Source of the DNA: Opitutales bacterium
GTDB lineage: Bacteria; Verrucomicrobiota; Verrucomicrobiia; Opitutales; PNEW01
Assembly: GCA_965219535.1 (NCBI GenBank)
Contig: CBDCNV010000002.1
Coordinates: 60,001 to 92,000, forward strand
Direction of reading: 5' to 3'
DNA length: 32,000 bases
A program made the position numbers and the translations under genes. Of the stretch, positions 8,802-32,000 are shown in pieces. Numbering within the stretch: position 1 is the stretch's first letter; each line of letters opens with the position of its first letter. The notes under the pieces are model-generated. The model did not search any database and was not told where the DNA came from. It worked only from the letters and a program-made list of their open reading frames with translations.

Positions 8802-10248
8802 TGAGCTTATCCGTTTTTCTCCATAACTTCTCTCTGTAAATAATTCGATTTTTTTGGTCACTCCATCTAGACTACCTGCTTCATTGGTTGGGTAGGCGTA
8901 AACACTTCGTGGTCGCACAGCAAAAGCTTCTTGTGTCCGATAAGTGGATATCGACGATGGCATTCGAGCGTACAGGCGATCATACCGAGGCTTACCGGTA
9001 GAATTTAGAAGTAAGGTGTTGCCATATTGAGCCGATGAGAGACGCCAAAGCTCAGAATCCTGTATAAAGAGCTGCCGGGTCAGGAAGATTTTGGCGCGAG
9101 GTTGCCGACCGTGGATGTGGGCGGACTCTTATTTTCTTTCGTCTATGCCTCGTGCAGTTGCCCGGGAAAAGTCGACCGCAAGCGAGCTATTGAATACACG
9201 GTCGATTAACTGAAGTGCTTTAGAGAACATGTCTGGGAGCAGCGCTAGAGCTCGAAACGGAGCTTACTGTGTGGTGCTTTCAATGTCTTGTCCAACCCCC
9301 ATACACTGGATGCCCTACTTAACAGAAGAATAAAGGTAGTAATTGACATCATTGCTCGACTCGGGATTAGTCGACCTGTATCATCACCTGCACCCAGACG
9401 ACAAAGATGGATTTAGCTAAGGATTCAATCCTCATAATAGCGCGTCATTGCCATACTCCACCTTATTATAAGTACAAAAAGCACTGCCGATCATCTTCGA
9501 TGTGATTTGTAAACCTTGGAATACTGTAAAGAGGTAAAAGAACTCAAAAGTCACAAATGGCCTCAAGGCATGTCCATTATCGGGGATTTGCACGAAATGG
9601 ATACTTGTTTGTCTCAGGTTGACACAACATGGGATCTTGAGACATGCAGGAATACCTGCGGCAACATTTGGATTTTTCGAGTAGCAGTTAGCCACGGAGG
9701 ATGCTAGGCGTTACATATTTGGTTCCGGTCGATGTGGTTGGTCCGGGAGGAACTGTGTTGTGGAGCGGAGTGGGGATCGACGCAGTCTACTTGGCGGCGT
9801 GGAAGAAGGGATGCGGGAGCGCCGAACGGAAACGAAAGGCGTTGGTTCTGGTGGAGATCGTAGTGGAAGGATGCTTATGGGACGGATCTGGCTGGGAACG
9901 ATTGTTGATGCTTCGAGTACCAGTCAGCTGCCCTTCATGAGGAACGCTGTTGCACATAGCCGCGTGGTCCACAACGATGGCCAGATGAGTTTATCGGCAG
10001 TTGCCGCACTGGGGATGGCGGACCGAAGTGACGACCGTTTGGAACCATCCCGAGTCAGCTTCGACGTTGCTGCCCCACGTGGAACGAGACCATTCGCGGG
10101 AAAACATTCTTAGTATGCCATTACCTCAGATGTCTTAAATGATCTGGGTATAATATATATTAAACAATTATAATGTAGTATATATTGGTTACATAAAAGA
10201 AAAAAATATAATCCCAGTAATTTAGACACCTAGCTAAAAAGACATCCT

Positions 10249-10277: not shown

Positions 10278-10469
10278 GAAGCTACAACTTATTATAAAAT
10301 TTATTTAAAACATGACAATGAACTATTTCAACAATTGATAACGATGCGTATTCGCAAGAAAATTATCAAATTTTTAATATATCTATCGATTTCTTGGCCT
10401 ATCCCTATAAACCTGGTACGAATAACGGGGTTCAATCAAATGTCCAAATAAGTTTTGAAAGCATGTACG

Positions 10470-12969: not shown

Positions 12970-13630
12970 TTTGCTAGTGTCTGTCAGATCTGATCATTAC
13001 TAGTACACATAAAATCCATCGACCAACGCTCCTGGACAGCGCAAGCTGAGGGCGGTGAGAACTCCCTTTGCCGACACGCTTTTTAGACATTTTCCTGCGC
13101 ACTTCCAGTTCTTTAACCTTGTAGATCCAATAAACGCGTTTCTTTCCTAACAACCAGTCTTCCCGCTTTAATAACACCCTAATTCGCCAATACCCATAGT
13201 GCACGCGGACGGTGGCGATGTTACGGATACGCATTACCAGTGCGCGGTTCGTCCTTCATCACAGGTTGGTCGTTATAACTTGACAAATACAACGGCAGCA
13301 ACCTGCATGCCTAGCGTTTGCTCTCCTCACAGGTTTCCACTAAACAGTCAGCAAACACCATCTTGCGTACAGGTTTAATTCGGTTGAACCCCAAGCCCGT
13401 GTATTTACCGTCCCAGCGGTGGAAGGTCTTGCTCTGCTCACGCCTGACTCTCGGCACCCTCCGTCTGTCCTTTGATCCCTTTCTATCAGTCTTAGGACAT
13501 AGATCATTTGTGTTTTACGATAGCAGTTTCCCTTTGCTTTTCATGGAAGTTTTTTCCCTGTCTCTTATTAACTTTTCCACCCATCCGAGACTAAATCTTT
13601 GCTCGTCCAGTTTTAAGAGGACAAGTCACA
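12970..13630 (-). mobile_element. Truncated IS3-family (IS407-like lineage) left part: OrfA plus the N-terminus of OrfB
   Basis: 12974..13234 reads ..VHYGYWRIRVLLKREDWLLGKKRVYWIYK.. (OrfB N-terminus). Minus-strand hand translation of 13300-13545 gives MKSKGK...EQSKTFHRWDGKYTGLG with stops (OrfA). The terminus lies near 13630 (tgtgacttgtcc on the minus strand). Confidence 0.7.
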
Positions 13631-20219: not shown

Positions 20220-21389
20220 TGCTCCCATTTACTAGACCAAGCTCAGTGTTAGGATTTGCTGGTTGGAGGGGGGCGGTTATCAGTTTGCATATGGCTTGCT
20301 GGGCGTATTCGGCCGGAGGCCGCCGGAGGCCGATAGCCCAGCGAACTGCGTAGTCTTTGAGTATTATAATCGAGGCGGTATGGTGTAAGCTTTTCCCGTG
20401 CCTCAGCCAGGGAAAAGAAGATCTCTGGGTTAAGGAGTTCGTCGCGTAGCTTGCCATTGAAGAACTCAATGTAAGCGTTCTCTGGTCGGTCTACCTGAGA
20501 ACTCGGGCCCGCTATCAACGGTGATGGCCTTGGGTAAACCACCGGTGTTTACCGATGCTCTCTCCAGCACCTCGATGACTTTGCCGGCGTCGATGGACTG
20601 ATCGGCGTAGAGCACCGGGCAGAGCGGTCATAGCGATCCACTACTGTAAGCACCCGGAAGCACCGCCCATCCGCCAACTTACCCTCCATGAAGTCCATGC
20701 TCCTGTGTTGGCGTGAGGCTCGGGCTTGAGCCAGCTGCACCCGTGGCAGGGAAGCCCACTTCTTACGCTTTTGGATGCGCACTTCCAGCCCCCTCGGCCT
20801 TGTAGGTGACGTAGACACGCTTGGTGGCCCACCGGCCAGCCTCTCGCTTTAGCAAACACTGTCGGACGCCGATAGCCGTAACGCATGCGCAATGCTGCCA
20901 GATCGCCGATACGCACGGTCAGCGCTCGATCGTCCGGTTTTGGCTTGGGCCAACACATAAAGCTTGACCCGTTAAGTTGCAGCAACCTGAACCCGCAACG
21001 GTAGCTGATCTCGAAGACCTCCGCGGCCTTACCCACCAGCTGCGCCTTGCGTACAGGCTTCAGAGCTATATTGAGACGATCTCCTGCAGGATATGTTTGT
21101 CCAGGCTCAGGTCGACCACCAGCTTACGTAAGCTGTTGTTCTCGTCTTCCGGCTTCTTCAACCGGGGTAGCTCGCTTACGCCTATGCCGCATACTGCTTC
21201 TTCCAGCGGTAGTAGGTCTGCTCCGAGACTCCTGGCTCGCGACACACATCGGCGATCCTGCGACCGCTGTCTGCTTGCCGCAAAGCGTAGATGATTTGTT
21301 CTTCTTTATAGTCTTTATAGCGTTTACCTTTGCTTTTCATAATGGACCGGGTTCCATTCTATGAACCCCGATCCAACCCAATGGGATCA
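20220..21389 (-). mobile_element. IS3-family (IS407-like) insertion sequence with a frameshifted transposase, inserted into an older IS remnant; left boundary approximate
   Basis: OrfA by hand translation from about 21352: MKSKGKRYKDYKEEQIIYALRQADSGRRIADVCREPGVSEQTYYRWKK..EDENNSLRKLVVDLSLDKHILQE. OrfB pieces: 20641..21036 (MRYGYRRP..), 20549..20818, and 20249..20542 (IEFFNGKLRDELLN..SSLGYRPPA). Termini: tgatcccattggg (minus strand at 21389) versus tgctcccattt (20220). Confidence 0.75.
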
Positions 21390-22150
21390 ACCTGCATACC
21401 CGGCGTTTGCTTACCTCATAAGCTTCCATTATCCACTTAGCTATCGACTTTTTGCGCAAAGGATTAATTTGCTGATTCCTAAACCTGTATATTTACACTT
21501 CCAACGGGGGTAAAGGCCTTGTTCGCACAACTCGGACCTTCGGTATCCCTTCGTCCGCCTTCTGCCTGCTTTATGAAATAGATCATTTGCTCTTTATGAT
21601 AACGCATGCCTTTTCTACTCATGGGTGGTTTTTATCCTGTCTTTTATCAGGTTTTCCACCCATGAAAGACTAAATCTTTGCTCGTCCAGTTAAATGGGAT
21701 CAGGTCACAGTCCCTCTATTTTATTAAGCTTACTTAACTGATTCATCCCGAGGGACTATCCACCAGAAACGATCTGCTTTTTCAGTAGTTACCAGGTCGA
21801 GATAGTAATTACGGATCACGGATTCAGAGTTGCTTGCCTGAGGTGCAGCGTCTCCTACCGAGCGGAAGGACCCCACCGTCATCGAAATATAGGTATGCCG
21901 TAGGACATTAGGTAGAGTTTGCGCTATTTACGGACATTAGCCCACATGTCGCGGAATCCCCTTGTTGGTATGGTGAGGTAGCTGCCAGGAGGATACTTCT
22001 CCAACCAGAGGCTACGGGTTGGGCTGGATTTTAACGGATCGCTTATCCTTTACTTTGGAGACATCCGGTTCGATAAGGATAACCCCGGTATCCCTATGGA
22101 TGTGTTTAGGTTTGAGTTTGCTCATTTTACCGTGTTTCCAGTCAAGTCTG
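21389..22150. repeat. Copy 2 of the diverged direct repeat: IS3 OrfA remnant + IS end + truncated integrase 3' fragment (about the last 135 codons, minus strand)
   Basis: See copy 1 (13299-14074). No ORF of 60 aa or more survives here. Similarity to the integrase stops abruptly at 22150. Confidence 0.75.
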
Positions 22151-22484
22151 TAAACAAAGTTTCTCTTAATCTACTTCATAGGGAAATCTGGAGGTGCCAA
22201 TACAGGTACCGTTTCGATTAAACTTGTCTCCACCGGGCGCATAAATTTATTGTTTTGCATCACAAGGGTCTGTTAATCGAGATTATTAAATTCACTCAAA
22301 AATTATTGACCGATTCCTGGCTGAACCTTACCAAAAAAGTATGATTCCTGCCCATTCCTGCCAAACATTTTGAGGCAAGGTCAGGAAATTAGAGGAAAAT
22401 ATAAATTATTATTGTGCCGTTATTTAAGTATAACTAATTGTTAATAAGCAATTTATAAGGCATTATTGAGTCCCGTTCATAGTC

Positions 22485-22793
22485 GGTTACATCGAATCGT
22501 TCCATGCACGTTTTCGCGAGGAGTGTCTAAATCGTGAACAGCTGTGGACTTTGACCGAAGCCCGCGTGGTGATCGAAGATTGGCGCTGGCTTTACAATCA
22601 TGTTCGACCCCACCGCAGCCTCGGCAATATTACTCCACAACGTTTCGCTCAAAACCTCAATACCGAAGGCTCGGGCTCCATTCGGGCTACGCCCTCATTG
22701 CGCCCAAGCCTTGACTTCCTCTACCAACTTAACTTCAACATTAACTTCTCCAGACTAACTCTCTCAGTGGACCAGTTTGTGTAACCCGACCAG
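22485..22793 (+). mobile_element. 3' fragment of an IS3-family element (same lineage as 5040-6360)
   Basis: 22551..22784 reads MTEARVVIEDWRWLYNHVRPHRSLGNITPQRFA...LYQLNFNINFSRLTLSVDQFV, nearly identical to the C-terminus of ORF 5018..5488. Upstream hand translation gives GYIESFHARFREECLNREQLW. Confidence 0.8.
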
Positions 22794-23072: not shown

Positions 23073-24134
23073 CTAAAAGAGCAACTCCCGACAATCCCAG
23101 TCGAGAAACTGCCCCATTCTAGCTTCAAATGTCGAAAATCTTTTCCAAACTAAGGCAGGGAAAAGATTGGCAATAACCGAAAGTCTATAGTCATACAAAC
23201 AGTCATTCCAATCGTAACCCGATACGCCGCCCTCCAGAAGTCCGTTATAATAATACCGCAACAACCCTTCCTCCAGAGATCGACGTCGATCAGGTTCCTC
23301 ATCCGAAACAAGGTAACACAAATCATAAGTCCCAAGACCTCGCTTGTATGTCTCCCAATCAGAAAAATACAAAGCATTTCTCGACGAGTCCTTAGGGTAA
23401 AAGATATTATACTTATGCAAATCCCCATGCAAGAGCGTCAACCCACTCCCCCTTCCAATTCGCTCTAGATACAACCTTTCCCATTCTTCGACAGATTTAA
23501 GAACAAGCCCATGCATTTCTTGAGACAATTCATCCGAGAACTTTGATGCGAATCGAAGAAACTCTTCCTCTCTCCACAATCGGCAATGATCCTTCACGAC
23601 ATCCGCAGTCGATGCTTGTATCATCCGCAAAGGCCCCCCTGAAGCTCGCATAAAGTCTTCTCCCAGCAACTCCGGAGCATCCCACCATCCGGCATGAAAC
23701 TTCAATACCTCATCAATAATCTGTTTATACAGATCGATCGTAAAAGCCTCCCCCTTAGGGGGCTCAATATCATGCGTGTCAGATGCATCCTCGAAAAGGA
23801 AATAGCATTGCCGCGAAGATCTATCAAAATCAAAATCATAACGCCTCACCGTTGGAGGACTCGAAATCCGTGCTGCAATGTCATTATAGAAAATCGATTC
23901 ATCCAAACCGCCTCCGAACCAATCCTCCCGATATCGCTTCAAAATTATATTGCAATGCAGACCAACTTCAACATCACCAGAATAAGTAATTTTTAAAGGC
24001 GTTAAAAAGGCCGCCGTTGATTCAAACTCCTCGCCAATCTGCACATCCTCCACGAAACCGTCCGAAAGATATCCATTCTTTCTAAAACGTTCAGTCAACC
24101 AACTTGGGGTAATTTGCTCCGCACGAATCATCAA
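23073..24134 (-). CDS. Phosphotransferase, APH / choline-kinase-like protein kinase fold, 353 aa
   Basis: Brenner-type catalytic motif LLHGDLHKYNIF (HxDxxxxN) followed by YFSDWETY (D-W-E metal-binding region), at the spacing usual for aminoglycoside/ecdysteroid-kinase-like enzymes. Confidence 0.7.
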   Translation of the reverse strand: MMIRAEQITPSWLTERFRKNGYLSDGFVEDVQIGEEFESTAAFLTPLKITYSGDVEVGLHCNIILKRYREDWFGGGLDESIFYNDIAARISSPPTVRRYDFDFDRSSRQCYFLFEDASDTHDIEPPKGEAFTIDLYKQIIDEVLKFHAGWWDAPELLGEDFMRASGGPLRMIQASTADVVKDHCRLWREEEFLRFASKFSDELSQEMHGLVLKSVEEWERLYLERIGRGSGLTLLHGDLHKYNIFYPKDSSRNALYFSDWETYKRGLGTYDLCYLVSDEEPDRRRSLEEGLLRYYYNGLLEGGVSGYDWNDCLYDYRLSVIANLFPALVWKRFSTFEARMGQFLDWDCRELLF

Positions 24135-24393
24135 TCGACTCTCTTTGTTAATTAGCTCTCGCCTTACGGCACTCTGTTATTATCTTCAGTTAGGAAAGAG
24201 CATCAAAATGCCCAAGTCGAGAACAGATATCCAAATAATACCATTTATCAATAAGACTTGCATCAGTCAACTAGAGCTGAAGCACGGGACTACCTTTTAC
24301 CGAACAAAGAGACAAACCTTCTTGAGGCGATCGATTGATGCACCCTGGAAAAAGTGGACACGGAATTCTCTCTTAGAGAGGATCCCTACTTTG

Positions 24394-24765
24394 TCAAAGA
24401 AGAGACGTTTCAGCGTCGAGTTCAAGAAGGAAGCAGTGCGACTAATGCTGCTGGAAGGGCGTTCCGTCTCGTCCTCAACGCTTCGCTCCGGAGGCGTTTC
24501 TGTCTTGGGCGAGTGATATTCTGTCCCGATGCGGCAGCATCCACAGCTGCTACGAAGCTGGCCCCCTGGGGCTACTCCTGCACCGCAGGCTGGTCGAGCT
24601 TGGGATATCCAATCATGGACATGAATATGCCTCGAAAAGTTGGATAACAGTGCGGCTCTTGATATTGATAAATCAAGTAAACAAATAAGAACGTATACAT
24701 CAGAATTTAAGCAGGACGCAGTGAATATGATGCTTTCTAGCAAGGGCTCAATCGCCCGGAAATAG
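24394..24765 (+). pseudogene. Two short IS3-family OrfA (HTH) fragments
   Basis: ..SKKRRFSVEFKKEAVRLMLLEGRSV.. (end of ORF 24145..24516), and by hand translation ..KQIRTYTSEFKQDAVNMMLSSKGSIARK* (about 24670-24765). Confidence 0.5.
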
Positions 24766-25071
24766 CCTCGCTTGCCGGACTCGCTCCAATCACCCTCCAG
24801 TCCGGGCAATGGAAAGGGCGATACTTTTCTCGACAGCGGCCGATCCAGGGTCCACAGAGCTCTCTATCTCGCCGCCCTCAGCGCGTCTCGATACAACGAG
24901 ACTCTCAAAATGTCTTCTACAAATGCTAGAAAGCCCGCCAAGCTGGCACTATGTGCCGTGGCAAGAAAGCTGCTCACCGCACTTGGTCGTGACCACGACC
25001 AGGAGGGCTTGTACTTATCTCAGCCTCAGTGGGTCAACGTACAGCTACCGGCCCAAACAGGCCAGTAATAA
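24766..25071 (+). pseudogene. IS110-family transposase 3' fragment (frameshifted)
   Basis: Hand translation gives ASLAGLAPITLQSGQWKGR. In ORF 24772..25068, ..GRSRVHRALYLAALSASRYNETLK...KPAKLALCAVARKLLTAL matches the conserved C-terminal region of IS110/IS1111-type transposases. Confidence 0.65.
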
Positions 25072-25077
25072 AGCTCA

Positions 25078-26770
25078 GCGGTTGGTTCCGGCGCATTCCC
25101 GATGGGTATTCTGCAAACCCTCACCCTGGTACTGCGCCGTCTTGACCCCGACAACGCGCTTTGGGAGCAAATTCAGAAGAAGCGGGCCAAGGCCCGAGCC
25201 GGTGCGACGTTCGACACTCATGATCAAGCGGCTCGAAGCGAGGCTCTCCGCGAGATCAGCGACACTTTCGAAAAGTACCGACAGTCGGACTTCGGCCGAA
25301 AGCTCTACCTCATACAGAATGCCATCTACGGCGTGGATATCCAACCCATCGCCTGCCAAATTGCCAAGTTGCGCTTTTTCATCTCACTCGTCATTGAGCA
25401 GGACCCTGACCTCGGCGCGCCCAATCTTGGCATCAAACCGTTACCCAATCTGGAGACACGGCTCGTCGCCGCCGACAGCTTGCTCAGCTTCAAGGCCGAA
25501 ACCGGCGACTTACTTCACCATAATGCCGTGGCGTCGAAGCAACGGGAGGTCGCGGCGGTACGTGATCGCTACTTCCTGGCGGACAGCCGGCCGAAGAAGC
25601 TTGAATGTATGCAGGCGGAGAAACGTCTGCGCGACGAGTTGCAGGACATATTGGAGACCGAGCGCCGAATCTGGGTTACAGTCCAGGATCGGGACATAGA
25701 AAGCATGGCGGCGAGATTTCCCAACGCGGATACCCGTGAGACCTTTCGAGCGAAGGAGCTTGGCAAGCTCGCTCTACGACAACGCGAGTACGATGAGACT
25801 TTGGCCGCGGCCCGTTTGATTGCCGAATGGGATCCCTACGACCAGAACGCTCACGCCGGCTGGTTCGACCCCGAATACATGTTCGACGTTTCGGCTGGTT
25901 TCGATGTCGTGATCGGCAACCCGCCTTATATCCAGTTGCAGAAGGACGGAGGTCGCGCGAGAAAGAAATACCAAAACGCCGGCTACGAGACGTTCGCAAG
26001 TACTGGGGACATCTACCAACTCTTCTACGAACGAGGCTGCGGGCTGCTCAAACCACGCGCTGGCGTATTGGCCTACATCACTTCTAACAGTTGGCTGAAG
26101 GCAGAATACGGCAAACCCCTTCGCCAGTGGTTCGCCGAACGGCACATGCCGCTGCAACTGATCGAAATGGGCAAGAACGTCTTCGAGAACGCAATAGTGG
26201 ATACAGCGGTGCTGATTGTCAGAAACGGCACGGGCCACCCTGTGACGTGCCCGGCGGTGGACGTCGATCAGGCATCGGAAAACCGATTCCCGCCGCCCAA
26301 AGGAGACTGGGGGACGCTACAACCGGAGGGTGATCGACCATGGATGGCGCTTTCGTCGGTCGAGCGCTCTGTAATGGAGAAGATGGAAACCGTCGGCACA
26401 CCTCTAAGGGAGTGGGATATTTCCATTTACCGTGGAATTCTCACCGGCTACAACGACGCTTTCATCATCGACACCGCAGTAAGAGACCGCCTTATCGCAG
26501 AGGATCCATCGTCAGAAGAAATACTCAAGCCGATTCTCAGGGGTCGTGATATAGCGCGTTACCGTGCAAACTGGGCTGACCTTTGGCTGATATCAACGTT
26601 TCCCTCGCTCGGTCTAGACATTGACGCTTATCCGGCGATCAAGCGACATCTCTTGTCTTTTGGGAAAGGACGTCTGTCTCAGGAAGGACGTCAATTGCCA
26701 GGAGGAGGTCGATCAAGGAAGAAGACATCCAATGCATGGTACGAACTTCAGGATACTTGCTCTTACCATG
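25078..26770. repeat. Left arm of the perfect 1693-bp inverted repeat
   Basis: It is the reverse complement of 27607-29299 (paired coordinates sum to 54377). I checked the nucleotides at both ends. Mirrored ORFs in several frames have identical translations in the supplied track. Confidence 0.95.
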
Positions 26771-27210
26771 AGGAATTTGGAAAAGCGAAGCTGTTTTGGA
26801 TGCACATGACACCGTATGGGAGGTTCGTATTGGCCGAGCCAAATGTCGTATGCAACCAGAAATGCTTCATGGTAACGGGAATGAACCTCGAATACCTTTG
26901 TGCCGTCCTTAACAGTAAGCTGGTGACTTGGCTTGTGAGACGCACTGCTGTAACGACAGGAATGGGGCTTCCTCAGTGGGACAAGTTCACCGTTGAACGC
27001 GTCCCGGTTGTGCAACCGGACCACCTTGTCATGGACGAGATCGGGGACATCGTGGAGTCTATTCTTGCCGCCCTAGAGCGCGGCGACGTCCAAGAGGTGG
27101 CCAGACTCCAGCGGATGATCGACAGCCACGTTTTTGGGCTTTACGAGCTGACGGAAGTCGAACGAGAGGCGGTTTCAAGAGCTATCAGTGATTCGTTGCC
27201 AATTCAATGA
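25078..27210 (+). pseudogene. 5'-truncated second copy of the DNA methyltransferase gene carrying an alternative C-terminal module (silent cassette candidate)
   Basis: Starts inside SAM-binding motif I (..AVGSGAFPMGIL..). ORF 25102..27210 is identical to residues 539-1094 of the 1234-aa protein, then diverges for its last 146 aa. There is no N-terminal region, and an IS110 remnant abuts its 5' edge. Confidence 0.8.
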
Positions 27211-30200
27211 CTTCCACCTCCTCTGCGGAGATCCCGTAGGTCTCGTAGATTACCTCATTGATCCGCTTCTCGATCTGCGCAAGTTGCTTCTCGTCGGACG
27301 ACGTAACTGATCGAGCCTCGTCGACTAGCCTACACAGTGTATCGGCGGCAGACGGACGTAGTATAGCCACGGGTATCGACTCGACGTACACCTTCTTCCA
27401 CCGAGGCACGCCCATACCTGAGGTAGGCGCTGTTTTCAGAATGTACCAGTGTGCGAGTCGCGAATTGAGGAACGCACAGAGGTAGTTCATTCGCTCGCCA
27501 GTGATCATGAACGTTGTTGCCTCGATGAACATTCCGCTTTCGTCGTACGCAAATCTGCCCCGGTCGACCAGTTCTATCCAGATCACCTTCTCCGACGCAA
27601 ATGTGCCATGGTAAGAGCAAGTATCCTGAAGTTCGTACCATGCATTGGATGTCTTCTTCCTTGATCGACCTCCTCCTGGCAATTGACGTCCTTCCTGAGA
27701 CAGACGTCCTTTCCCAAAAGACAAGAGATGTCGCTTGATCGCCGGATAAGCGTCAATGTCTAGACCGAGCGAGGGAAACGTTGATATCAGCCAAAGGTCA
27801 GCCCAGTTTGCACGGTAACGCGCTATATCACGACCCCTGAGAATCGGCTTGAGTATTTCTTCTGACGATGGATCCTCTGCGATAAGGCGGTCTCTTACTG
27901 CGGTGTCGATGATGAAAGCGTCGTTGTAGCCGGTGAGAATTCCACGGTAAATGGAAATATCCCACTCCCTTAGAGGTGTGCCGACGGTTTCCATCTTCTC
28001 CATTACAGAGCGCTCGACCGACGAAAGCGCCATCCATGGTCGATCACCCTCCGGTTGTAGCGTCCCCCAGTCTCCTTTGGGCGGCGGGAATCGGTTTTCC
28101 GATGCCTGATCGACGTCCACCGCCGGGCACGTCACAGGGTGGCCCGTGCCGTTTCTGACAATCAGCACCGCTGTATCCACTATTGCGTTCTCGAAGACGT
28201 TCTTGCCCATTTCGATCAGTTGCAGCGGCATGTGCCGTTCGGCGAACCACTGGCGAAGGGGTTTGCCGTATTCTGCCTTCAGCCAACTGTTAGAAGTGAT
28301 GTAGGCCAATACGCCAGCGCGTGGTTTGAGCAGCCCGCAGCCTCGTTCGTAGAAGAGTTGGTAGATGTCCCCAGTACTTGCGAACGTCTCGTAGCCGGCG
28401 TTTTGGTATTTCTTTCTCGCGCGACCTCCGTCCTTCTGCAACTGGATATAAGGCGGGTTGCCGATCACGACATCGAAACCAGCCGAAACGTCGAACATGT
28501 ATTCGGGGTCGAACCAGCCGGCGTGAGCGTTCTGGTCGTAGGGATCCCATTCGGCAATCAAACGGGCCGCGGCCAAAGTCTCATCGTACTCGCGTTGTCG
28601 TAGAGCGAGCTTGCCAAGCTCCTTCGCTCGAAAGGTCTCACGGGTATCCGCGTTGGGAAATCTCGCCGCCATGCTTTCTATGTCCCGATCCTGGACTGTA
28701 ACCCAGATTCGGCGCTCGGTCTCCAATATGTCCTGCAACTCGTCGCGCAGACGTTTCTCCGCCTGCATACATTCAAGCTTCTTCGGCCGGCTGTCCGCCA
28801 GGAAGTAGCGATCACGTACCGCCGCGACCTCCCGTTGCTTCGACGCCACGGCATTATGGTGAAGTAAGTCGCCGGTTTCGGCCTTGAAGCTGAGCAAGCT
28901 GTCGGCGGCGACGAGCCGTGTCTCCAGATTGGGTAACGGTTTGATGCCAAGATTGGGCGCGCCGAGGTCAGGGTCCTGCTCAATGACGAGTGAGATGAAA
29001 AAGCGCAACTTGGCAATTTGGCAGGCGATGGGTTGGATATCCACGCCGTAGATGGCATTCTGTATGAGGTAGAGCTTTCGGCCGAAGTCCGACTGTCGGT
29101 ACTTTTCGAAAGTGTCGCTGATCTCGCGGAGAGCCTCGCTTCGAGCCGCTTGATCATGAGTGTCGAACGTCGCACCGGCTCGGGCCTTGGCCCGCTTCTT
29201 CTGAATTTGCTCCCAAAGCGCGTTGTCGGGGTCAAGACGGCGCAGTACCAGGGTGAGGGTTTGCAGAATACCCATCGGGAATGCGCCGGAACCAACCGCC
29301 GGATCAAGCACTCTTAGGCCAGCGATGGCACCTACCAGTGATTCTTTTTCTTCCGGTTCGAAGAAGTCGCCGGCATCGGCCTTCGCGTCTTCCCAGTTGA
29401 GCAGGTAACGCAGCCGTTCCCGCCAGAATTCATCGCCGCGGATGGTGGGTTGGGCATTCCCGGCCAAAGCGTCAACCAAGGCTTCGCCGACCATATAGTC
29501 CACCACCGGCCGCGGCGTGTAATAGGAGCCGGTAGCATTGCGGGCGGTTGCGCGTGTCTCTGGATTGTAGGCAGCGAGTAGGTTCTCGAAGACACGGCCT
29601 AGAAGCTCGGGGTCAAGCGCAACCTCGCGGTCGAGGGGCGTGCTCTCCTCGACAGTGAACTTGAAATGGCGAAAGAGGGTAAACAGTCCCTCCTGATCGA
29701 GAAGCAGACGCGCAGGCACGCACAACTCCTCGTCCTTGATCAGATCCTCAGTGAAGGCGTCAACCAGCCCGCCGTCCGCTACGGTGAAATCGTCCAGGCA
29801 GTCGAACAGTCCGCCATTGACGAACGGAACCTTCTCCAGGTTTCTGGCGAAAGCGTCCGGGTCGGTGAGCAAGTCGTGGTATCGGTACTTGGTGAAGTCC
29901 CGGTGGGAACTGGACGTTTGATTGCTGAAGCCACGCTTGTCGATTTCCGTGTTCAGGGTGGCGAAGAACAGGTTTTGCAGCACTGCGCGGTAATAGTCTG
30001 TCCGGTTAGACGTGTGGCGCTTGAGCGTAGCGCGCGAGAATTCTTCATCGAACAAGGTATCGGGGACCAACCCCTTTTCCTTCATGAACCAGATGAAGAG
30101 CAGCCTTGTGATGAGCCGGATGACGTGGCGTTCGGTACCTTCTTCGCCTGCGCCGTCGTCCGGGAAGCGGCACTCGGCGACAGCCCGCTCAAACCAAGCG

Positions 30201-30889
30201 AACAGTTTGCGGTAGAAACGCTTGTTCAGTGTTTCGATATCGAGCACCCGCTCCCACTCCTCGTGCAGCTCATCGAAACTACGGACCCCCGACTCGCGCA
30301 TGCGGGAGAACGCGAGGTCGGAAAGAATCTCGATATGCGCCCGATGCGGCTCGGCCAAGCGGATATCCTTCACCAAAGTCACCCTGTCCAACACGTCACG
30401 GCTATCGTCGCGTGTGTGCACGCGCCGGTGTGTGGTGGCCAGTGTCAACGTCGAACCGTGACGGAACAGGAGAATAACCGGCATCGCGAAGAGGCGGTTC
30501 ACGGCACGAGTCGTCTCCGCCAAGTGCGTGCGCGAATAGGCATCCCGCGCCATGTCCACCGCAAGGAAGAGGAAGGACTCTATCCGGCCCTGGTCGAACC
30601 CATGAGTCTCGAACAGGTCGGACTGCCGGACGATCTCTCCGGCTGTGAACTGGAATACGATTTCGACGGCGGTCCATGATTCGAATAGCTTGCGCTGCTT
30701 TTTGGTCAGCTTGTTGCTGTGCGCGAAGCGCTCGAGGAATTCCTGGACGCTGCCGACCTCTGCAGTCCGCTGGCTGCTGTAACCGAGCTCGTCGAGCAAC
30801 GCCGTAGCCCCCACCCTCAATGGCGCATCGTCGGCGAGATTGCCCAGTGCTTCGAGTGTTCCACAGGCTACGACTAAGCCGTTAGTCAT
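27185..30889 (-). CDS. Large gamma-class N6-adenine DNA methyltransferase, Eco57I/PglX-like with a TaqI_C-like C-terminal specificity region, 1234 aa
   Basis: Motif X GSYYTPRPVVDYMV, motif I VLDPAVGSGAFPMGIL, motif IV DVVIGNPPYIQLQ. Downstream come ITSNSWLKAEYGKPLRQWF, GILTGYNDAFII and AWYELQD, as in PglX / type IIG / type IIL enzymes. I recognised no PD-(D/E)xK or HNH nuclease motif in the N-terminal 500 aa. Confidence 0.85.
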   Translation of the reverse strand: MTNGLVVACGTLEALGNLADDAPLRVGATALLDELGYSSQRTAEVGSVQEFLERFAHSNKLTKKQRKLFESWTAVEIVFQFTAGEIVRQSDLFETHGFDQGRIESFLFLAVDMARDAYSRTHLAETTRAVNRLFAMPVILLFRHGSTLTLATTHRRVHTRDDSRDVLDRVTLVKDIRLAEPHRAHIEILSDLAFSRMRESGVRSFDELHEEWERVLDIETLNKRFYRKLFAWFERAVAECRFPDDGAGEEGTERHVIRLITRLLFIWFMKEKGLVPDTLFDEEFSRATLKRHTSNRTDYYRAVLQNLFFATLNTEIDKRGFSNQTSSSHRDFTKYRYHDLLTDPDAFARNLEKVPFVNGGLFDCLDDFTVADGGLVDAFTEDLIKDEELCVPARLLLDQEGLFTLFRHFKFTVEESTPLDREVALDPELLGRVFENLLAAYNPETRATARNATGSYYTPRPVVDYMVGEALVDALAGNAQPTIRGDEFWRERLRYLLNWEDAKADAGDFFEPEEKESLVGAIAGLRVLDPAVGSGAFPMGILQTLTLVLRRLDPDNALWEQIQKKRAKARAGATFDTHDQAARSEALREISDTFEKYRQSDFGRKLYLIQNAIYGVDIQPIACQIAKLRFFISLVIEQDPDLGAPNLGIKPLPNLETRLVAADSLLSFKAETGDLLHHNAVASKQREVAAVRDRYFLADSRPKKLECMQAEKRLRDELQDILETERRIWVTVQDRDIESMAARFPNADTRETFRAKELGKLALRQREYDETLAAARLIAEWDPYDQNAHAGWFDPEYMFDVSAGFDVVIGNPPYIQLQKDGGRARKKYQNAGYETFASTGDIYQLFYERGCGLLKPRAGVLAYITSNSWLKAEYGKPLRQWFAERHMPLQLIEMGKNVFENAIVDTAVLIVRNGTGHPVTCPAVDVDQASENRFPPPKGDWGTLQPEGDRPWMALSSVERSVMEKMETVGTPLREWDISIYRGILTGYNDAFIIDTAVRDRLIAEDPSSEEILKPILRGRDIARYRANWADLWLISTFPSLGLDIDAYPAIKRHLLSFGKGRLSQEGRQLPGGGRSRKKTSNAWYELQDTCSYHGTFASEKVIWIELVDRGRFAYDESGMFIEATTFMITGERMNYLCAFLNSRLAHWYILKTAPTSGMGVPRWKKVYVESIPVAILRPSAADTLCRLVDEARSVTSSDEKQLAQIEKRINEVIYETYGISAEEVEVIELATNH
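27607..29299. repeat. Right arm of the perfect 1693-bp inverted repeat (inside the intact methyltransferase gene)
   Basis: As for the left arm. It corresponds to codons 531-1094 of CDS 27185..30889. Confidence 0.95.
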
Positions 30890-32000
30890 TGCGTTTGCGT
30901 TCCAGGTTCCTCGTGATGACTAGCCATGTAATAAGGTCGAATTTGCCGAGCGGTTCTGGTTCCGGTAATTTCTCTGTGATTACGGCGCCGCGGTTGCGAC
31001 TGAGCCCGGTCAACTCCGCATCCCGGAAAGAACGGGCGATGCTGCGCAGTGCCGCAGCGAGCATGGCATCATGCTTCTCCATGCGTTGGCCCTGTTCGGT
31101 TTCCCGGTCGAAGGCGTCCTCCAGCGCGGTAATCGCTTCGGGACGGCCCGCCGCAAGCGCCCGGAACAGGGCAAGGCATTGTCGGGATTGCCGGAAGGTG
31201 TAGCGCACGGTGCCATCCTCGCGTACATAGACTAGGAAGTATGGCCAGAGGCGGTTCGGGGTGCGTGCGGCGGGGTCGCCGAAGCGTCTCAGGCAGAAAA
31301 TCGCACCGGGCCGCACCAGATCGGTCGCGCTGCCCTTGGTCTCCGGTTGGCCCTCATCCACAACGGCATGGATGCCCAACGGCGCAGTTTCCAGAGCTTC
31401 TCGATTCTGCTGGATATAGTGAAGCAGGTCGGCGACGAAATCATCGAGCGTAAGATCGTTTAAGCCAACGCCGTCATCGGTTTCCTCAATATCGAGAATC
31501 TCGTCGCGCATACGCGTCAACTGCCGGTCGCGGAAGGTAAGTTCCAACTGGACTGCCTCGGTGTGTTCGTCCTTGGTGCGGTCGTCGCGGTTGAGCGGGT
31601 CGTCGAGGCCGGTGGCAGCTGCATCGGCAAGCGCCATCCGCGCTTCGACGCGATTCTTCAGATCCAGATAGCAGTCGAGGTTCTCAGTCGGCCAGAAATT
31701 GGTCATGGCGACCTGTCGATTGCGGCTGCCAAGTCGGTCGATCCGGCCGAAACGTTGCATAAGCCGAACCGGATTCCAATGGATGTCATAGTTCACGACG
31801 AGGTCGCAGTCCTGAAGGTTCTGTCCCTCTGACAGGCAGTCGGTCGCGATCACGATGTCGATTTCACAGTCTTGACTGCCGGCCTGTTGCGCCCTAGGGG
31901 CAAACCGCTCCAGAATGTCGATAAACCGGGATGTTCCCGTGGTGCTCCGGTTGCCGTCCCCGCCGGTCACCAGCGCAATGTGAACGCCGAGCTCGTTGCG
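30882..32000 (-). CDS. SNF2/SF2-type helicase, C-terminal part only (5' end outside the window)
   Basis: Helicase motifs V-VI: ATDCLSEGQNLQDCDLVVNYDIHWNPVRLMQRFGRIDRLGS. The frame stays open to position 32000 (..RNELGVHIALVTGGDG..). The stop TAA at 30884..30882 overlaps the methyltransferase ATG (ATGACTAA, an 8-nt overlap). Confidence 0.8.
   Translation of the reverse strand, partial: RNELGVHIALVTGGDGNRSTTGTSRFIDILERFAPRAQQAGSQDCEIDIVIATDCLSEGQNLQDCDLVVNYDIHWNPVRLMQRFGRIDRLGSRNRQVAMTNFWPTENLDCYLDLKNRVEARMALADAAATGLDDPLNRDDRTKDEHTEAVQLELTFRDRQLTRMRDEILDIEETDDGVGLNDLTLDDFVADLLHYIQQNREALETAPLGIHAVVDEGQPETKGSATDLVRPGAIFCLRRFGDPAARTPNRLWPYFLVYVREDGTVRYTFRQSRQCLALFRALAAGRPEAITALEDAFDRETEQGQRMEKHDAMLAAALRSIARSFRDAELTGLSRNRGAVITEKLPEPEPLGKFDLITWLVITRNLERKRND

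What the first reader, a model, noticed from the sequence alone, without database searches (positions are those of the whole stretch)
27185..32000. SNF2 helicase coupled to a 1234-aa methyltransferase: two-gene defence-like module of uncertain class
The helicase stop and the methyltransferase start overlap (ATGACTAA, 30882-30889), which implies co-translation. An SNF2-like helicase beside a large Eco57I-type adenine methyltransferase recalls the DrmD-DrmMI pair of class 1 DISARM. The methyltransferase architecture also recalls BREX PglX and type IIG / type IIL enzymes. Downstream of the methyltransferase there are no drmA/drmB/drmC-like or brx/pgl-like genes, only the inverted cassette and IS debris. 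I saw no nuclease motif in the methyltransferase N-terminus. The about 290 aa following helicase motif VI (..DLTLDDFVADLLHYIQQNREALETAPLG..) carry no motif I recognise. Either the remaining components lie beyond position 32000, or the system has been truncated, or this is a distinct helicase-methyltransferase module. The block is visibly more GC-rich than the rest of the window, consistent with separate acquisition.
Basis: partly seen in the sequence, partly recalled or inferred. Interest (0 to 1): 0.65.

Follow-up and report, generated by a model that had tools for sequence, protein, structure and literature searches.

The report
Invertible two-gene restriction-modification module
The helicase and methyltransferase belong to a widespread but experimentally untested two-gene restriction-modification family (not DISARM or BREX), and the neighbouring "inverted cassette" is a spare target-recognition module that DNA inversion can swap in.

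Summary
A 1234-aa adenine methyltransferase (27185-30889, minus strand) starts 8 nt before the stop of a helicase. Only the last 372 codons of that helicase lie in the window.

It is not DISARM, BREX or a self-contained Type IIG enzyme. In 59 of 80 related loci the methyltransferase has a helicase partner; where full-length it is about 1100 aa. Six of the seven full-length partners scanned against Pfam gave a PLD/HKD nuclease-domain hit at the N-terminus. The only other recurrent neighbour is a tyrosine recombinase (12 loci). No DrmA/B/C, BrxC or PglZ was found.

The methyltransferase N-terminus is a divergent DUF4391 domain, not a nuclease.

The "inverted cassette" belongs to the system. A 1693-nt perfect inverted repeat ends exactly at a junction in the middle of the target-recognition domain. 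Inversion would exchange the last 140 codons for 146 different ones. Relatives carry the same tail-to-tail silent cassette, nested repeats and the same two allele types.

Milman et al. 2023 already confirmed such inversions in this architecture (Bacteroides ovatus). This is therefore a new member of a described but uncharacterised kind. Here the recombinase is missing, and sister strains have a decayed copy.

The parts
30882..32000 (-). C-terminal 372 codons plus stop of the helicase partner. The gene continues beyond the window end. Motif V lies at 31812-31847 and motif VI at 31728-31757. The last ~280 aa are a family-specific extension.
   Evidence: Translation. Pfam Helicase_C 5e-12. Best PADLOC hit is PDLC01075 'HKD+Snf2' at 1.3e-36, covering profile positions 640-920 of 948; the last 282 aa alone hit only that profile (7e-10). 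The fragment is 66-73% identical to full-length helicases that end at the methyltransferase start in L001, L002, L008 and L077. A predicted structure (pLDDT 70) gives RapA 6bog as the best PDB match, at E 1.5e-4 with a low TM-score.
30882..30889 (-). ATGACTAA: the methyltransferase start codon overlaps the helicase stop codon.
   Evidence: Sequence. The same 8-nt overlap is implied by the ORF coordinates in L001 and L077. In 31 of 50 relatives the genes overlap or lie within 100 nt.
27185..30889 (-). 1234-aa N6-adenine DNA methyltransferase that also reads the target. Domain order: DUF4391-like domain, helical spacer, gamma-class methyltransferase of the Eco57I family, TaqI_C target-recognition domain.
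   Evidence: It aligns end to end (aa 11-1229) at 60% identity with L001.
30245..30712 (-). N-terminal DUF4391-like domain (about aa 60-215), including the invariant motif PHRAH at 30335-30349. It occupies the position where Type IIG enzymes carry their nuclease.
   Evidence: The window protein hits Pfam DUF4391 only weakly (0.0098). Among 49 homologues, 14 hit DUF4391 at E<=1e-3, best 1.3e-7. There is no conserved D...(D/E)xK set among the invariant residues. No PADLOC Type IIG profile matches aa 1-213. The AlphaFold model (pLDDT 78) has no PDB fold match (best E 0.18).
29804..30121 (-). Helical spacer (aa 257-362), similar to the MmeI spacer domain.
   Evidence: Pfam MmeI_hel at 2.4e-4 to 2.7e-3, below Pfam's cut-off. 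PADLOC Type IIG profile PDLC03601 matches aa 214-321.
28193..29305 (-). Methyltransferase catalytic region: motif I DPAVGSGAF (29279-29305), the Eco57I domain (28193-29059) and NPPY (28448-28459).
27368..27850 (-). TaqI_C target-recognition domain of the expressed gene. Half 1 runs up to CSYH (aa 1091-1094). Half 2 begins at aa 1095.
   Evidence: Pfam. Alignment A3 and per-half identities.
27576..29299 (.). Inverted-repeat arm inside the expressed gene (aa 531-1104). It is perfect from 27607 to 29299.
25078..26801 (.). Inverted-repeat arm inside the silent copy. It is perfect from 25078 to 26770. All 13 mismatches lie in 26771-26801.
26771..27606 (.). Invertible core. It holds two tail-to-tail, 26-nt-overlapping alternative 3' ends. 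A2 (27188-27607, 140 codons) is currently expressed. B2 (26770-27207, 146 codons) is silent.
   Evidence: Sequence. A2 and B2 are 30% identical. A2 is 69% identical to the L077 silent cassette, and B2 is 67% identical to the L077 expressed end.
25102..27210 (+). Silent cassette, read as a 702-aa ORF. It copies aa 531-1094 of the methyltransferase and adds B2. It lacks the N-terminal 530 aa and the first two residues of motif I.
25002..25085 (.). Remnant of an IS-like element end, abutting the outer end of the silent copy.
   Evidence: It is 82% identical to the reverse complement of window 8392-8475. The same junction is kept in sister strain L083 (13285-13379, 92% identical to window 25097-25002).

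Best explanation
This is a two-subunit, ATP-dependent restriction-modification system whose specificity can be switched by DNA inversion.

Subunit 1 is the 1234-aa protein. Its C-terminal TaqI_C domain reads a short DNA sequence. It methylates an adenine there to mark host DNA (inferred from the intact gamma-class motifs).

Subunit 2 is the upstream, translationally coupled helicase-like protein. Six of the seven full-length relatives scanned against Pfam, and the fragments from L081 and L083, show an N-terminal PLD/HKD nuclease-domain hit. The helicase core is SNF2-like and is followed by a ~280-aa family-specific C-terminal extension. I infer that subunit 2 is recruited to unmethylated sites through the DUF4391-like N-terminus of the methyltransferase. 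It would then move along DNA using ATP and cut through an HKD site formed by two copies. This would resemble Type ISP and Type III enzymes and the SauUSI/MtsD type of motor-nuclease.

The expressed gene and the silent copy share a 1.7-kb inverted repeat that ends at the junction in the middle of the recognition domain. Recombination anywhere in that repeat flips the 836-nt core. It replaces the last 140 codons (A2) with 146 different ones (B2), giving a 1240-aa protein with a different second half of the recognition domain. Relatives do this with a dedicated tyrosine recombinase. Here that gene is missing, so any inversion would depend on general homologous recombination.

What is shown: gene structure, domains, conserved gene pairing, repeat geometry and allele sharing.
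What is inferred: the nuclease in this particular helicase, the DUF4391 coupling, the cleavage mechanism, and actual switching.
For: Conserved pairing. In 59 of 80 related loci a helicase homologue sits upstream on the same strand. In 31 of 50 full-length pairs the genes overlap or lie within 100 nt. No other gene family is shared apart from a tyrosine recombinase (12 loci).

Nuclease.
- Six of the seven full-length helicase partners scanned against Pfam gave a PLD-domain hit (PLDc_2, usually with RE_NgoFVII). The L081 N-terminal fragment gave a weak RE_NgoFVII PLD hit, and the L083 fragment a precomputed PLDc_2 hit.
- FLHGKLYH...GSSNFT is invariant in the eight aligned N-termini. One of these is sister strain L083, whose DNA is 97.5% identical to window 29480-32000.
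- The best PADLOC model is 'HKD+Snf2' at 1e-110 to 1e-124, against 1e-41 for DrmD.

No nuclease in the methyltransferase. Its N-terminus is DUF4391-like. On plasmids, stand-alone DUF4391 genes sit directly after homologous helicases (36-38% identity) and before a methyltransferase.

Switch.
- The perfect 1693-nt inverted repeat ends right after codon H1094.
- Tail-to-tail silent TaqI_C cassettes with inverted repeats occur in L002, L004, L012, L013, L014, L016, L021, L040, L057, L077 and L081. A tyrosine recombinase accompanies the cassette in all of these except L081; it lies downstream of the cassette, except in L014, where it lies upstream of the helicase.
- An inner repeat sits at the same CAYH..KEKL.W junction in L021 (46 nt, 91%), L040, L016, L004 and L081.
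- The A and B allele types are shared across lineages, and the expressed L081 gene is a B1+A2 mosaic.
- Milman et al. 2023 confirmed inversions with long reads in the same architecture in B. ovatus.

Constraint. Of 44 substitutions against the sister strain, 25 fall at third codon positions (p = 0.0012). The window also lacks the sister strain's 1-nt frameshift at 31172.
Against: - No member of this family has been tested experimentally, as far as the searched literature shows.
- The first two thirds of the helicase, including the nuclease, lie outside the window. That part may be broken, as it is in sister strains L083-L085, which have at least 3 frameshifts and a methyltransferase truncated near aa 470.
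- No recombinase homologue exists anywhere in the 32 kb.
- Half 1 of the recognition domain is identical in both copies, so only half 2 can vary.
- The silent copy is far longer than in relatives and abuts an IS remnant. It could therefore be a by-product of rearrangement.
- About ten relatives with full upstream flanks have no helicase, so the methyltransferase can exist alone.
- In MANTIS an HKD-helicase effector needs two further proteins, and cleavage has not been reconstituted in vitro. A two-protein mechanism is therefore not guaranteed.
- The DUF4391 assignment is weak for the window protein itself (E 0.0098; hhalign probability 13%).
Confidence: 0.65

Rival explanations
1. The family is the same, but this copy is a decaying remnant. 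The helicase is broken upstream of the window and the recombinase is lost. The locus would be, at most, an orphan methyltransferase on its way to pseudogenisation in an IS-ridden genome.
For: In three sister-strain assemblies (L083-L085; 97.5% nt identity over 2.5 kb) the helicase needs frames 3, 1, 2, 3 to align. The methyltransferase there ends near aa 470, next to IS sequence. The window is full of IS3-family fragments. No recombinase is present. The closest other relative, L081, also has both genes split.
Against: The 1234-codon methyltransferase ORF is intact with all catalytic motifs. The 372 visible helicase codons are open. The sister strain's 1-nt frameshift at 31172 is absent here. 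Substitutions are biased towards third codon positions (p = 0.0012).
Confidence: 0.3
2. The 1.7-kb inverted duplicate is an accident of IS-mediated rearrangement or inverted duplication. It is not a working switch, and the orientation seen is fixed.
For: The outer end of the silent copy abuts an IS-like end. The arm is about ten times longer than the repeats in relatives, which are 80-186 nt. No recombinase is present. Sister strains have deleted almost the whole quasi-palindrome, which suggests it is unstable rather than maintained.
Against: The inner end of the repeat coincides to the codon with the mid-domain junction where relatives have their inner repeat. The core carries two intact, in-frame alternative ends. 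Each has orthologues at 66-69% identity in other lineages, in the same tail-to-tail layout. A perfect 1.7-kb inverted repeat is a good substrate for RecA-dependent inversion (established knowledge). Zero mismatches over 1693 nt, against 2.5% divergence from the sister strain, suggests ongoing exchange between the arms.
Confidence: 0.3
3. It is a truncated class 1 DISARM system. The two genes are DrmD and DrmMI, and drmA/drmB/drmC have been lost or lie beyond position 32000.
For: SNF2-type helicase next to a large Eco57I-type adenine methyltransferase. DrmD and DrmMI profiles do match (E 1e-18 for the window proteins).
Against: Matches are confined to the shared helicase and methyltransferase cores. 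Full-length homologues score 161-165 bits on DISARM_DrmD against a cut-off of 610. DrmMI scores 63 bits against 484 bits for a Type IIG profile. None of the 80 related loci with +/-10 kb of flank shares a DrmA/DrmB-like gene. In this family the PLD domain is fused to the helicase and is not a separate DrmC.
Confidence: 0.03
4. It is a BREX or BREX-related (MANTIS/Gao_RL-like) system seen in part.
For: PglX profiles match the catalytic core. MANTIS uses an HKD plus SF2-helicase effector with a methyltransferase.
Against: PglX equivalog scores are 24-64 bits against cut-offs of 400-900. No BrxC/DUF499, PglZ or small MtsB-type (DUF3780 or DUF3870; the two sources differ) partner recurs in the 80 loci. 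The PADLOC 'PLD_Helicase' model scores 1e-22 against 1e-110 for 'HKD+Snf2'.
Confidence: 0.03
5. It is a self-contained Type IIG or IIL enzyme (Cj0031- or MmeI-like) that cuts DNA itself, and the helicase is an unrelated neighbour.
For: The best PADLOC hits are Type IIG profiles (1e-145). There are weak MmeI spacer and methyltransferase hits. Some relatives lack the helicase.
Against: The Type IIG profiles do not cover aa 1-213. No conserved acidic/lysine catalytic set is present. The N-terminus is DUF4391-like. The helicase is conserved next to it, with overlapping or adjacent ORFs, across many phyla.
Confidence: 0.04

Closest known systems
Programmed-inversion loci of Milman et al. 2023, class (b): a Type II RM gene (Cj0031 homologue) with an adjacent PLD + SNF helicase gene. 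Examples: Bacteroides ovatus CP083813.1 5322008-5329826 and CP044495.1. Source: PMC9881135.
   Same: A PLD-plus-SNF helicase gene sits immediately upstream of a large Eco57I-type methyltransferase gene, and inversions at inverted repeats alter that gene's coding sequence. Milman et al. found homologues in three phyla. Bacteroidales and Spirochaete relatives in my set (L050, L058, L075) have the same domain layout.
   Different: I could not fetch the B. ovatus sequence, so direct homology is untested. In the window the repeat is 1.7 kb instead of short, the recombinase is absent, and only half of the recognition domain differs between copies.
Type ISP restriction-modification enzymes (LlaGI, LlaBIII)
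   Same: The functional modules come in the same order: nuclease, SF2 motor, gamma-class adenine methyltransferase, C-terminal recognition domain. Both imply a single asymmetric site read by one recognition domain (review PMC3874165). This is the best model for how the pair may work.
   Different: Type ISP enzymes are one polypeptide with an Mrr-type PD-(D/E)xK nuclease. Here there are two proteins, an HKD/PLD nuclease, an SNF2-like motor and a DUF4391-like domain at the junction. No significant sequence hit to Type ISP structures was found.
MANTIS / Gao_RL (BREX-related type 2), effector MtsD; also SauUSI
   Same: The effector has an N-terminal HKD nuclease plus an SF2 helicase-like ATPase. 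A separate adenine methyltransferase chooses the site. MtsD is a dimer that forms one PLD active site (bioRxiv 10.64898/2026.09.23.753747; PMC12839542).
   Different: MANTIS needs a DUF499 AAA+ ATPase (MtsA) and a small MtsB protein, called DUF3870 in the MANTIS preprint and DUF3780 in PMC12839542. Neither occurs here or in the 80 relatives. The methyltransferase here is Eco57I/TaqI_C-type with a fused DUF4391-like domain.
Class 1 DISARM (DrmD, DrmMI, DrmA, DrmB, DrmC)
   Same: SNF2-type helicase, Eco57I-type adenine methyltransferase and a PLD nuclease domain are all present in the system. Milman et al. also found inversions in DrmMI.
   Different: There is no DrmA or DrmB. The PLD domain is fused to the SNF2 protein. 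All profile scores are far below the family cut-offs.
Plasmid and chromosomal cluster 'helicase-related protein - DUF4391 - site-specific DNA-methyltransferase (- DEAD/DEAH helicase)'. Examples: Shewanella baltica pSBAL67801 and Desulforapulum pHRM2a.
   Same: The first gene is a homologous helicase (36-38% identity over more than 90% of its length), and a DUF4391 module lies between helicase and methyltransferase.
   Different: There DUF4391 is a separate ~250-290-aa protein. The methyltransferase is a different ~630-aa enzyme, and a second helicase often follows. Here the DUF4391-like module is fused to an Eco57I-type methyltransferase.
Type I hsdS inversion systems (shufflon-like specificity switching)
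   Same: Silent, inverted recognition-domain cassettes lie next to the expressed gene. Nested inverted repeats allow half-domains to be exchanged, and a tyrosine recombinase is encoded alongside (established knowledge; Milman et al.).
   Different: The switched gene here is a single-chain methyltransferase with its own recognition domain, not a separate S subunit.
Type IIG / IIL enzymes (MmeI, Eco57I, Cj0031)
   Same: Helical spacer, gamma-class methyltransferase and TaqI_C-type recognition domain. These give the best profile hits.
   Different: The N-terminal PD-(D/E)xK nuclease that defines Type IIG enzymes is replaced by a DUF4391-like domain.

Membership tests
HKD-SNF2 helicase + Eco57I-type methyltransferase two-gene family (Milman class b; PADLOC model 'HKD+Snf2') | Large Eco57I/TaqI_C methyltransferase directly downstream of, and co-oriented with, the helicase | tested here: met
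   8-nt overlap at 30882-30889. The pairing is conserved in 59 of 80 related loci.
HKD-SNF2 helicase + Eco57I-type methyltransferase two-gene family (Milman class b; PADLOC model 'HKD+Snf2') | The helicase belongs to the HKD+Snf2 family | tested here: met
   The window fragment's best PADLOC hit is PDLC01075 at 1.3e-36, covering profile positions 640-920 of 948. The two closest full-length homologues tested against PADLOC (L077, L001) score 1e-110 to 1e-124.
HKD-SNF2 helicase + Eco57I-type methyltransferase two-gene family (Milman class b; PADLOC model 'HKD+Snf2') | N-terminal HKD/PLD nuclease domain in the helicase | not testable with these tools
   This part of the gene lies beyond position 32000. 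It is inferred from sister strain L083 (97.5% nt identity; PLDc_2 fragment with the HKD motif intact). It is also inferred from six of the seven full-length relatives scanned against Pfam.
HKD-SNF2 helicase + Eco57I-type methyltransferase two-gene family (Milman class b; PADLOC model 'HKD+Snf2') | Coding-sequence inversion between the gene's 3' part and a silent inverted cassette | tested here: inconclusive
   The repeat and cassette geometry is present and matches relatives. No read-level evidence of both orientations is available, and no recombinase is present in the window.
Class 1 DISARM | DrmA (helicase) and DrmB (DUF1998) core genes | tested here: not met
   They are absent from the window. 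No such family recurs within +/-10 kb in the 80 related loci. The region upstream of 32000 is unseen.
Class 1 DISARM | The helicase and methyltransferase reach the DrmD and DrmMI family scores | tested here: not met
   DISARM_DrmD scores 66.5 bits for the fragment and 161-165 bits for full-length homologues, against a cut-off of 610. PADLOC DrmMI scores 63 bits against 484 bits for a Type IIG profile.
BREX (types 1-6) | PglX-type methyltransferase above the equivalog cut-off | tested here: not met
   BREX-1, -2, -6 and -5 PglX models score 64, 59.5, 32.9 and 23.7 bits, against cut-offs of 500, 400, 900 and 900.
BREX (types 1-6) | BrxC ATPase and PglZ phosphatase in the locus | tested here: not met
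   Neither is in the window. Neither is among the conserved neighbours in the 80 loci.
MANTIS / Gao_RL (BREX-related type 2) | DUF499 AAA+ ATPase (MtsA) and the small MtsB partner (DUF3870 in the preprint, DUF3780 in PMC12839542) alongside the methyltransferase and the HKD-helicase | tested here: not met
   No such conserved neighbours were found. The PADLOC 'PLD_Helicase' model is a much weaker match than 'HKD+Snf2'.
Type IIG restriction-modification enzymes | Nuclease domain fused N-terminally to the methyltransferase in the same polypeptide | tested here: not met
   Type IIG profiles do not cover aa 1-213. No conserved D...(D/E)xK set is present. The region is DUF4391-like. The predicted fold matches no solved nuclease.
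Type IIG restriction-modification enzymes | Gamma-class N6-adenine methyltransferase with a C-terminal recognition domain | tested here: met
   Eco57I 1.9e-34, TaqI_C 4e-14; motif I lies before NPPY.
Type ISP restriction-modification enzymes | Single polypeptide with an Mrr-type nuclease, helicase, methyltransferase and recognition domain | tested here: not met
   There are two ORFs, and relatives carry an HKD nuclease, not an Mrr-type one.
Type III restriction-modification | Beta-class Mod subunit plus a Res subunit with a C-terminal PD-(D/E)xK nuclease | tested here: not met
   The methyltransferase is gamma-class Eco57I-type. The helicase C-terminus has no nuclease hit, and in relatives the nuclease is an N-terminal HKD domain.

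The most novel reading that the evidence does not exclude
The family would be a distinct, still unnamed class of ATP-dependent restriction-modification system, in effect a split Type ISP-like enzyme. An HKD-nuclease SNF2 motor would be coupled to a sequence-reading methyltransferase through a DUF4391 adaptor domain. That adaptor is fused here and free-standing in the plasmid-borne relatives. The single-chain recognition domain would be built from two exchangeable halves, and nested inverted repeats would shuffle them combinatorially (A1A2, A1B2, B1A2, B1B2), as happens in Type I S subunits. That would give DUF4391 its first proposed function. It would also extend half-domain shuffling from Type I S subunits to single-chain methyltransferases.
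Probability: 0.35. Interest if true: 0.6.

Novelty: new member of a known kind. Interest (0 to 1): 0.38.

Why it matters
It settles the class of a module that looked like a partial DISARM or BREX system.

The family is common in uncultured marine lineages. Many of the 80 related loci come from Poribacteria, Latescibacterota, SAR202/Dehalococcoidia and other groups that I know as sponge-associated.

It offers three testable ideas:
- DUF4391 couples a motor-nuclease to a methyltransferase.
- A single HKD domain on an SNF2 motor is the restriction effector.
- Halves of a single-chain recognition domain can be swapped by inversion.

For this particular genome the practical message is more modest. 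The copy has lost its recombinase and sits among IS debris, and sister strains have already lost the system.

Tried and rejected
- Exact look-ups of the 1234-aa methyltransferase and of the 702-aa silent ORF found no record. I therefore could not extend the contig or find an assembly with the opposite orientation.
- A megablast of 27000-32000 against plasmids found nothing.
- A Foldseek search of the methyltransferase N-terminal model (pLDDT 78) against the PDB gave no meaningful hit (best E 0.18). The fold of the DUF4391-like domain stays unassigned. My impression of a restriction-endonuclease-like strand order is not supported by any match.
- The Foldseek search of the helicase C-terminal model gave only RapA at E 1.5e-4, with TM 0.19 and rmsd 25 A. 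This is suggestive at best.
- Profile comparison of the N-terminal alignment with two stand-alone DUF4391 proteins was weak (E 0.0021 and 0.06; probabilities 13% and 1%). The DUF4391 link rests mainly on 14 of 49 homologues hitting the Pfam model.
- PDB sequence searches found only the methyltransferase and helicase cores (CamA, BseCI, TaqI, BrxX; Snf2, RapA).
- I suspected an IS110 fragment at 24772-25068, but Pfam gave no hit, so I dropped that label.
- Literature searches for a named system with this architecture, for DUF4391, and for the PADLOC label found no functional study.
- I considered that the long inverted repeat might be an assembly artefact. I rejected this because sister strain L083 keeps the same junction between the silent copy and the IS-like sequence.

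Full report
**1. What is in the sequence**

The region holds two co-oriented genes on the minus strand.
- The downstream one (27185..30889) is an intact 1234-codon ORF.
- The upstream one runs off the window. Only its last 372 codons are visible (30882..32000).
- The methyltransferase ATG overlaps the helicase stop in ATGACTAA (30882-30889).

The methyltransferase has Pfam Eco57I (aa 611-899) and TaqI_C (aa 1014-1174) domains. It also gives weak hits to the MmeI helical spacer and to DUF4391 in its N-terminal third. Motif I (DPAVGSGAF, aa 529-537) and NPPY (aa 811-814) are intact and in gamma-class order.

The helicase fragment has Helicase_C, with motif VI at fragment aa 82-91. The following 281 aa have no Pfam hit.

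The block 25078-32000 is 57.2% GC against 46.9% for the rest of the window. The TonB-receptor gene at 17538-20117 is also 54.7%. The factual observation is therefore confirmed. The caveat is that only a third of the helicase is present.

**2. The "inverted cassette" is part of the system**

The stretch 25078-26801 is the reverse complement of 27576-29299.
- Identity is perfect over 1693 nt (25078-26770 against 29299-27607).
- All 13 mismatches fall in the last 31 nt.

The plus-strand copy reads as a 702-aa ORF (25102..27210) with Eco57I and TaqI_C domains.
- It starts at the equivalent of aa 531, inside motif I.
- It therefore lacks the whole N-terminal half.

The two copies are arranged tail to tail and their ends overlap by 26 nt. 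Perfect identity stops exactly after the histidine codon of CSYH (aa 1091-1094). Beyond it:
- the expressed gene has 140 codons (A2);
- the silent copy has 146 different codons (B2);
- A2 and B2 are 30% identical.

Recombination anywhere in the arms would flip the 836-nt core and produce a 1240-aa protein ending in B2.

**3. Related loci define a two-gene family**

A scan of one genome per species returned 80 loci that encode relatives of the methyltransferase (32-62% identity). They come from many phyla.
- In 59 of them a homologue of the helicase lies upstream on the same strand. In 31 of 50 full-length pairs the genes overlap or lie within 100 nt.
- Clustering all ORFs within +/-10 kb found only one further recurrent family, a tyrosine recombinase in 12 loci. 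No DrmA/DrmB/DrmC-, BrxC-, PglZ- or DUF499-like family recurs.

The helicases are about 1080-1190 aa. Seven full-length ones were scanned against Pfam, and six gave a PLD-domain hit (PLDc_2, usually with RE_NgoFVII) at the N-terminus. All have an SNF2/ResIII core, Helicase_C and the C-terminal extension.

The motif FLHGKLYH...GSSNFT is invariant in the eight aligned N-termini.

Their best PADLOC model is PDLC01075, labelled "HKD+Snf2" (1e-110 to 1e-124), against 1e-41 for DrmD. The window fragment also matches that model best, including its last 282 aa, which match nothing else.

**4. The nuclease of this particular helicase is inferred, not seen**

Three assemblies of a sister strain (L083-L085) are 97.5% identical to window 29480-32000. 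They share the TonB-receptor region at 92.7%. Upstream of the shared part they carry a PLDc_2 fragment with the HKD motif.

In those strains, however, the system is decayed.
- The helicase needs four reading frames to align.
- It carries an 18-nt deletion and a 1-nt insertion relative to the window.
- The methyltransferase ends near aa 470.

The window lacks that insertion. In addition, 25 of 44 substitutions between the two lie at third codon positions (p = 0.0012). This points to some purifying selection since the split.

**5. The methyltransferase N-terminus is not a nuclease**

- Type IIG profiles match from about aa 214 onward but not aa 1-213.
- In an alignment of 49 homologues, the invariant residues of the first 200 aa are mostly Arg, His and hydrophobic positions. 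There is no D...(D/E)xK set.
- 14 of the 49 homologues hit Pfam DUF4391 at E<=1e-3 (best 1.3e-7). The window protein hits it at only 0.0098.
- An AlphaFold model (pLDDT 78) found no fold match in the PDB.

On plasmids, helicases 36-38% identical to this family are followed directly by a stand-alone DUF4391 gene and then a methyltransferase. Examples are Shewanella baltica pSBAL67801 and Desulforapulum pHRM2a.

From this I infer that DUF4391 links the motor-nuclease to the methyltransferase. It is fused here and free-standing there. This is an inference from co-occurrence only.

**6. The switch is a family trait**

*Silent cassettes.* Tail-to-tail silent TaqI_C cassettes of 150-340 aa, with inverted repeats to the expressed gene, occur in L002, L004, L012, L013, L014, L016, L021, L040, L057, L077 and L081. 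A homologous tyrosine recombinase (Pfam Phage_integrase) accompanies the cassette in all of these except L081. It lies just downstream of the cassette, except in L014, where it lies upstream of the helicase.

*Nested repeats.*
- The outer repeat is 80-186 nt and lies just before the recognition domain.
- A second, inner repeat sits at the CAYH..KEKL.W junction. It is seen in L021 (46 nt, 91%), L040 (51 nt, 84%), L016, L004 and L081.
- That junction is the very position where the window's long repeat ends.

*Two allele types per half*.
- Half 1: both window copies are type A1 (85% identical to the L077 silent cassette).
- Half 2: the window's expressed end is A2 (69% to the L077 silent cassette, 54% to the L081 expressed gene).
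- Half 2: the window's silent end is B2 (67% to the L077 expressed gene, 66% to the L081 silent cassette).
- The expressed L081 gene is a B1+A2 mosaic. Halves have therefore been exchanged during evolution.

*In the window.*
- No recombinase homologue exists anywhere.
- The silent copy's outer end abuts an IS-like end. Sister strain L083 retains that same junction, with 20 nt of the silent arm.
- The long silent copy is therefore ancestral in this species and not an assembly artefact. The sister strains have deleted almost the whole quasi-palindrome.
- Any switching here would depend on general homologous recombination across the 1.7-kb arms.

**7. Comparison with known systems**

*Same architecture, already described.* Milman et al. 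2023 (PMC9881135) list inversions confirmed by long reads in "Type II RM" genes homologous to Cj0031. In these loci the immediately upstream gene encodes phospholipase D and SNF helicase domains (Bacteroides ovatus CP083813.1). They report homologues in three phyla. That is this architecture, so the kind is already described. It is unnamed, and I found no functional study.

*Closest working models.*
- Type ISP enzymes have the same module order, but in one chain and with an Mrr nuclease.
- The MANTIS effector MtsD and SauUSI are HKD plus SF2 motors that dimerise to form one PLD site.
- MANTIS additionally needs a DUF499 ATPase and a small partner protein, which are absent here. Its cleavage has not been reconstituted. 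This cautions against assuming that two proteins suffice.

*Membership tests that fail.*
- DISARM and BREX fail on both gene content and profile scores.
- Type IIG fails on its defining N-terminal nuclease.

**8. Verdict**

The module is a new member of a known but uncharacterised kind. It is a two-gene, probably ATP-dependent restriction-modification system, with an invertible half of its recognition domain.

The DISARM/BREX analogy is only shared domains. The nuclease and the switch were missed.

Whether this copy still works is open. The methyltransferase is intact and under some constraint. However, the recombinase is gone, the locus sits in IS debris, the helicase N-terminus is unseen, and sister strains have lost the system.

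Noticed in passing
L083 15179-21082 (also L084, L085), minus strand; outside the window, in the sister strain: About 3.7 kb beyond the decayed methyltransferase lies another defence-like cluster. It has a 618-aa protein with HEPN_Swt1 plus SNF2/ResIII domains, a 572-aa Helicase_C protein (possibly one split gene), and a 794-aa SACS (sacsin-like) protein.
   Followed up: no
L035 10001-21891: In a Poribacteria genome, one helicase is followed by three tandem full-length methyltransferase paralogues (1214, 1155 and 1239 aa). They share direct repeats of 83-89% identity over their 5' parts. This is a direct-repeat array rather than an inversion cassette.
   Followed up: no
window 20249-22784 and 24145-25085; also 5143-6330, 8338-8865, 13008-13628: The window is littered with IS3-family fragments (rve_3, HTH_Tnp_1) and repeated IS-like pieces. 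These also occur in the sister-strain loci. Relative to L084, the restriction module sits in the opposite orientation with respect to the TonB-receptor gene.
   Followed up: partly
window 23073-24134 (-): A 353-aa ORF has EcKL/APH-type kinase hits (2.6e-6 and 8.5e-5). It lies in a stretch with unusually strong negative GC skew (-0.325) and is wedged between IS debris.
   Followed up: no
window 10455-12746 (+): A 763-aa ORF has no Pfam hit at E<=0.01 and lies in the lowest-GC part of the window (0.39-0.45).
   Followed up: no
L081 6639-13506; L082 10001-13561; lists: Many homologues in the protein database are 450-900 aa instead of ~1200. In L081 both genes are split in two, and in L082 the methyltransferase is split 744 + 430 aa, on long contigs. 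I could not tell whether these are real frameshifts (pseudogenes or phase variation) or assembly errors.
   Followed up: partly
L082 10001-18669: Here a methyltransferase relative has no helicase partner. It is followed by a 1157-aa TIR plus TPR protein and an SMC/AAA_15-type ATPase. A DarT/Macro gene lies nearby, so this looks like a defence island.
   Followed up: no
L081 5432-6475: A GmrSD_C (DUF1524-type) nuclease gene (1.5e-24) lies directly upstream of the helicase in the closest non-sister relative. It is possibly an added Type IV restriction gene.
   Followed up: no
L001-L080 (record titles): A large share of the related loci come from uncultured marine lineages that I know as sponge-associated. 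These include Poribacteria, Latescibacterota, SAR202/Dehalococcoidia, Candidatus Tethybacter and Spongiisociaceae. Several genomes carry two or three copies (for example OZ242010.1 gives L006, L032 and L039).
   Followed up: no
L083 13063-13284: In the sister strain, 222 nt of unassigned sequence fill the gap between the truncated methyltransferase (about aa 470) and the last 20 nt of the silent arm. Their origin is unknown.
   Followed up: no
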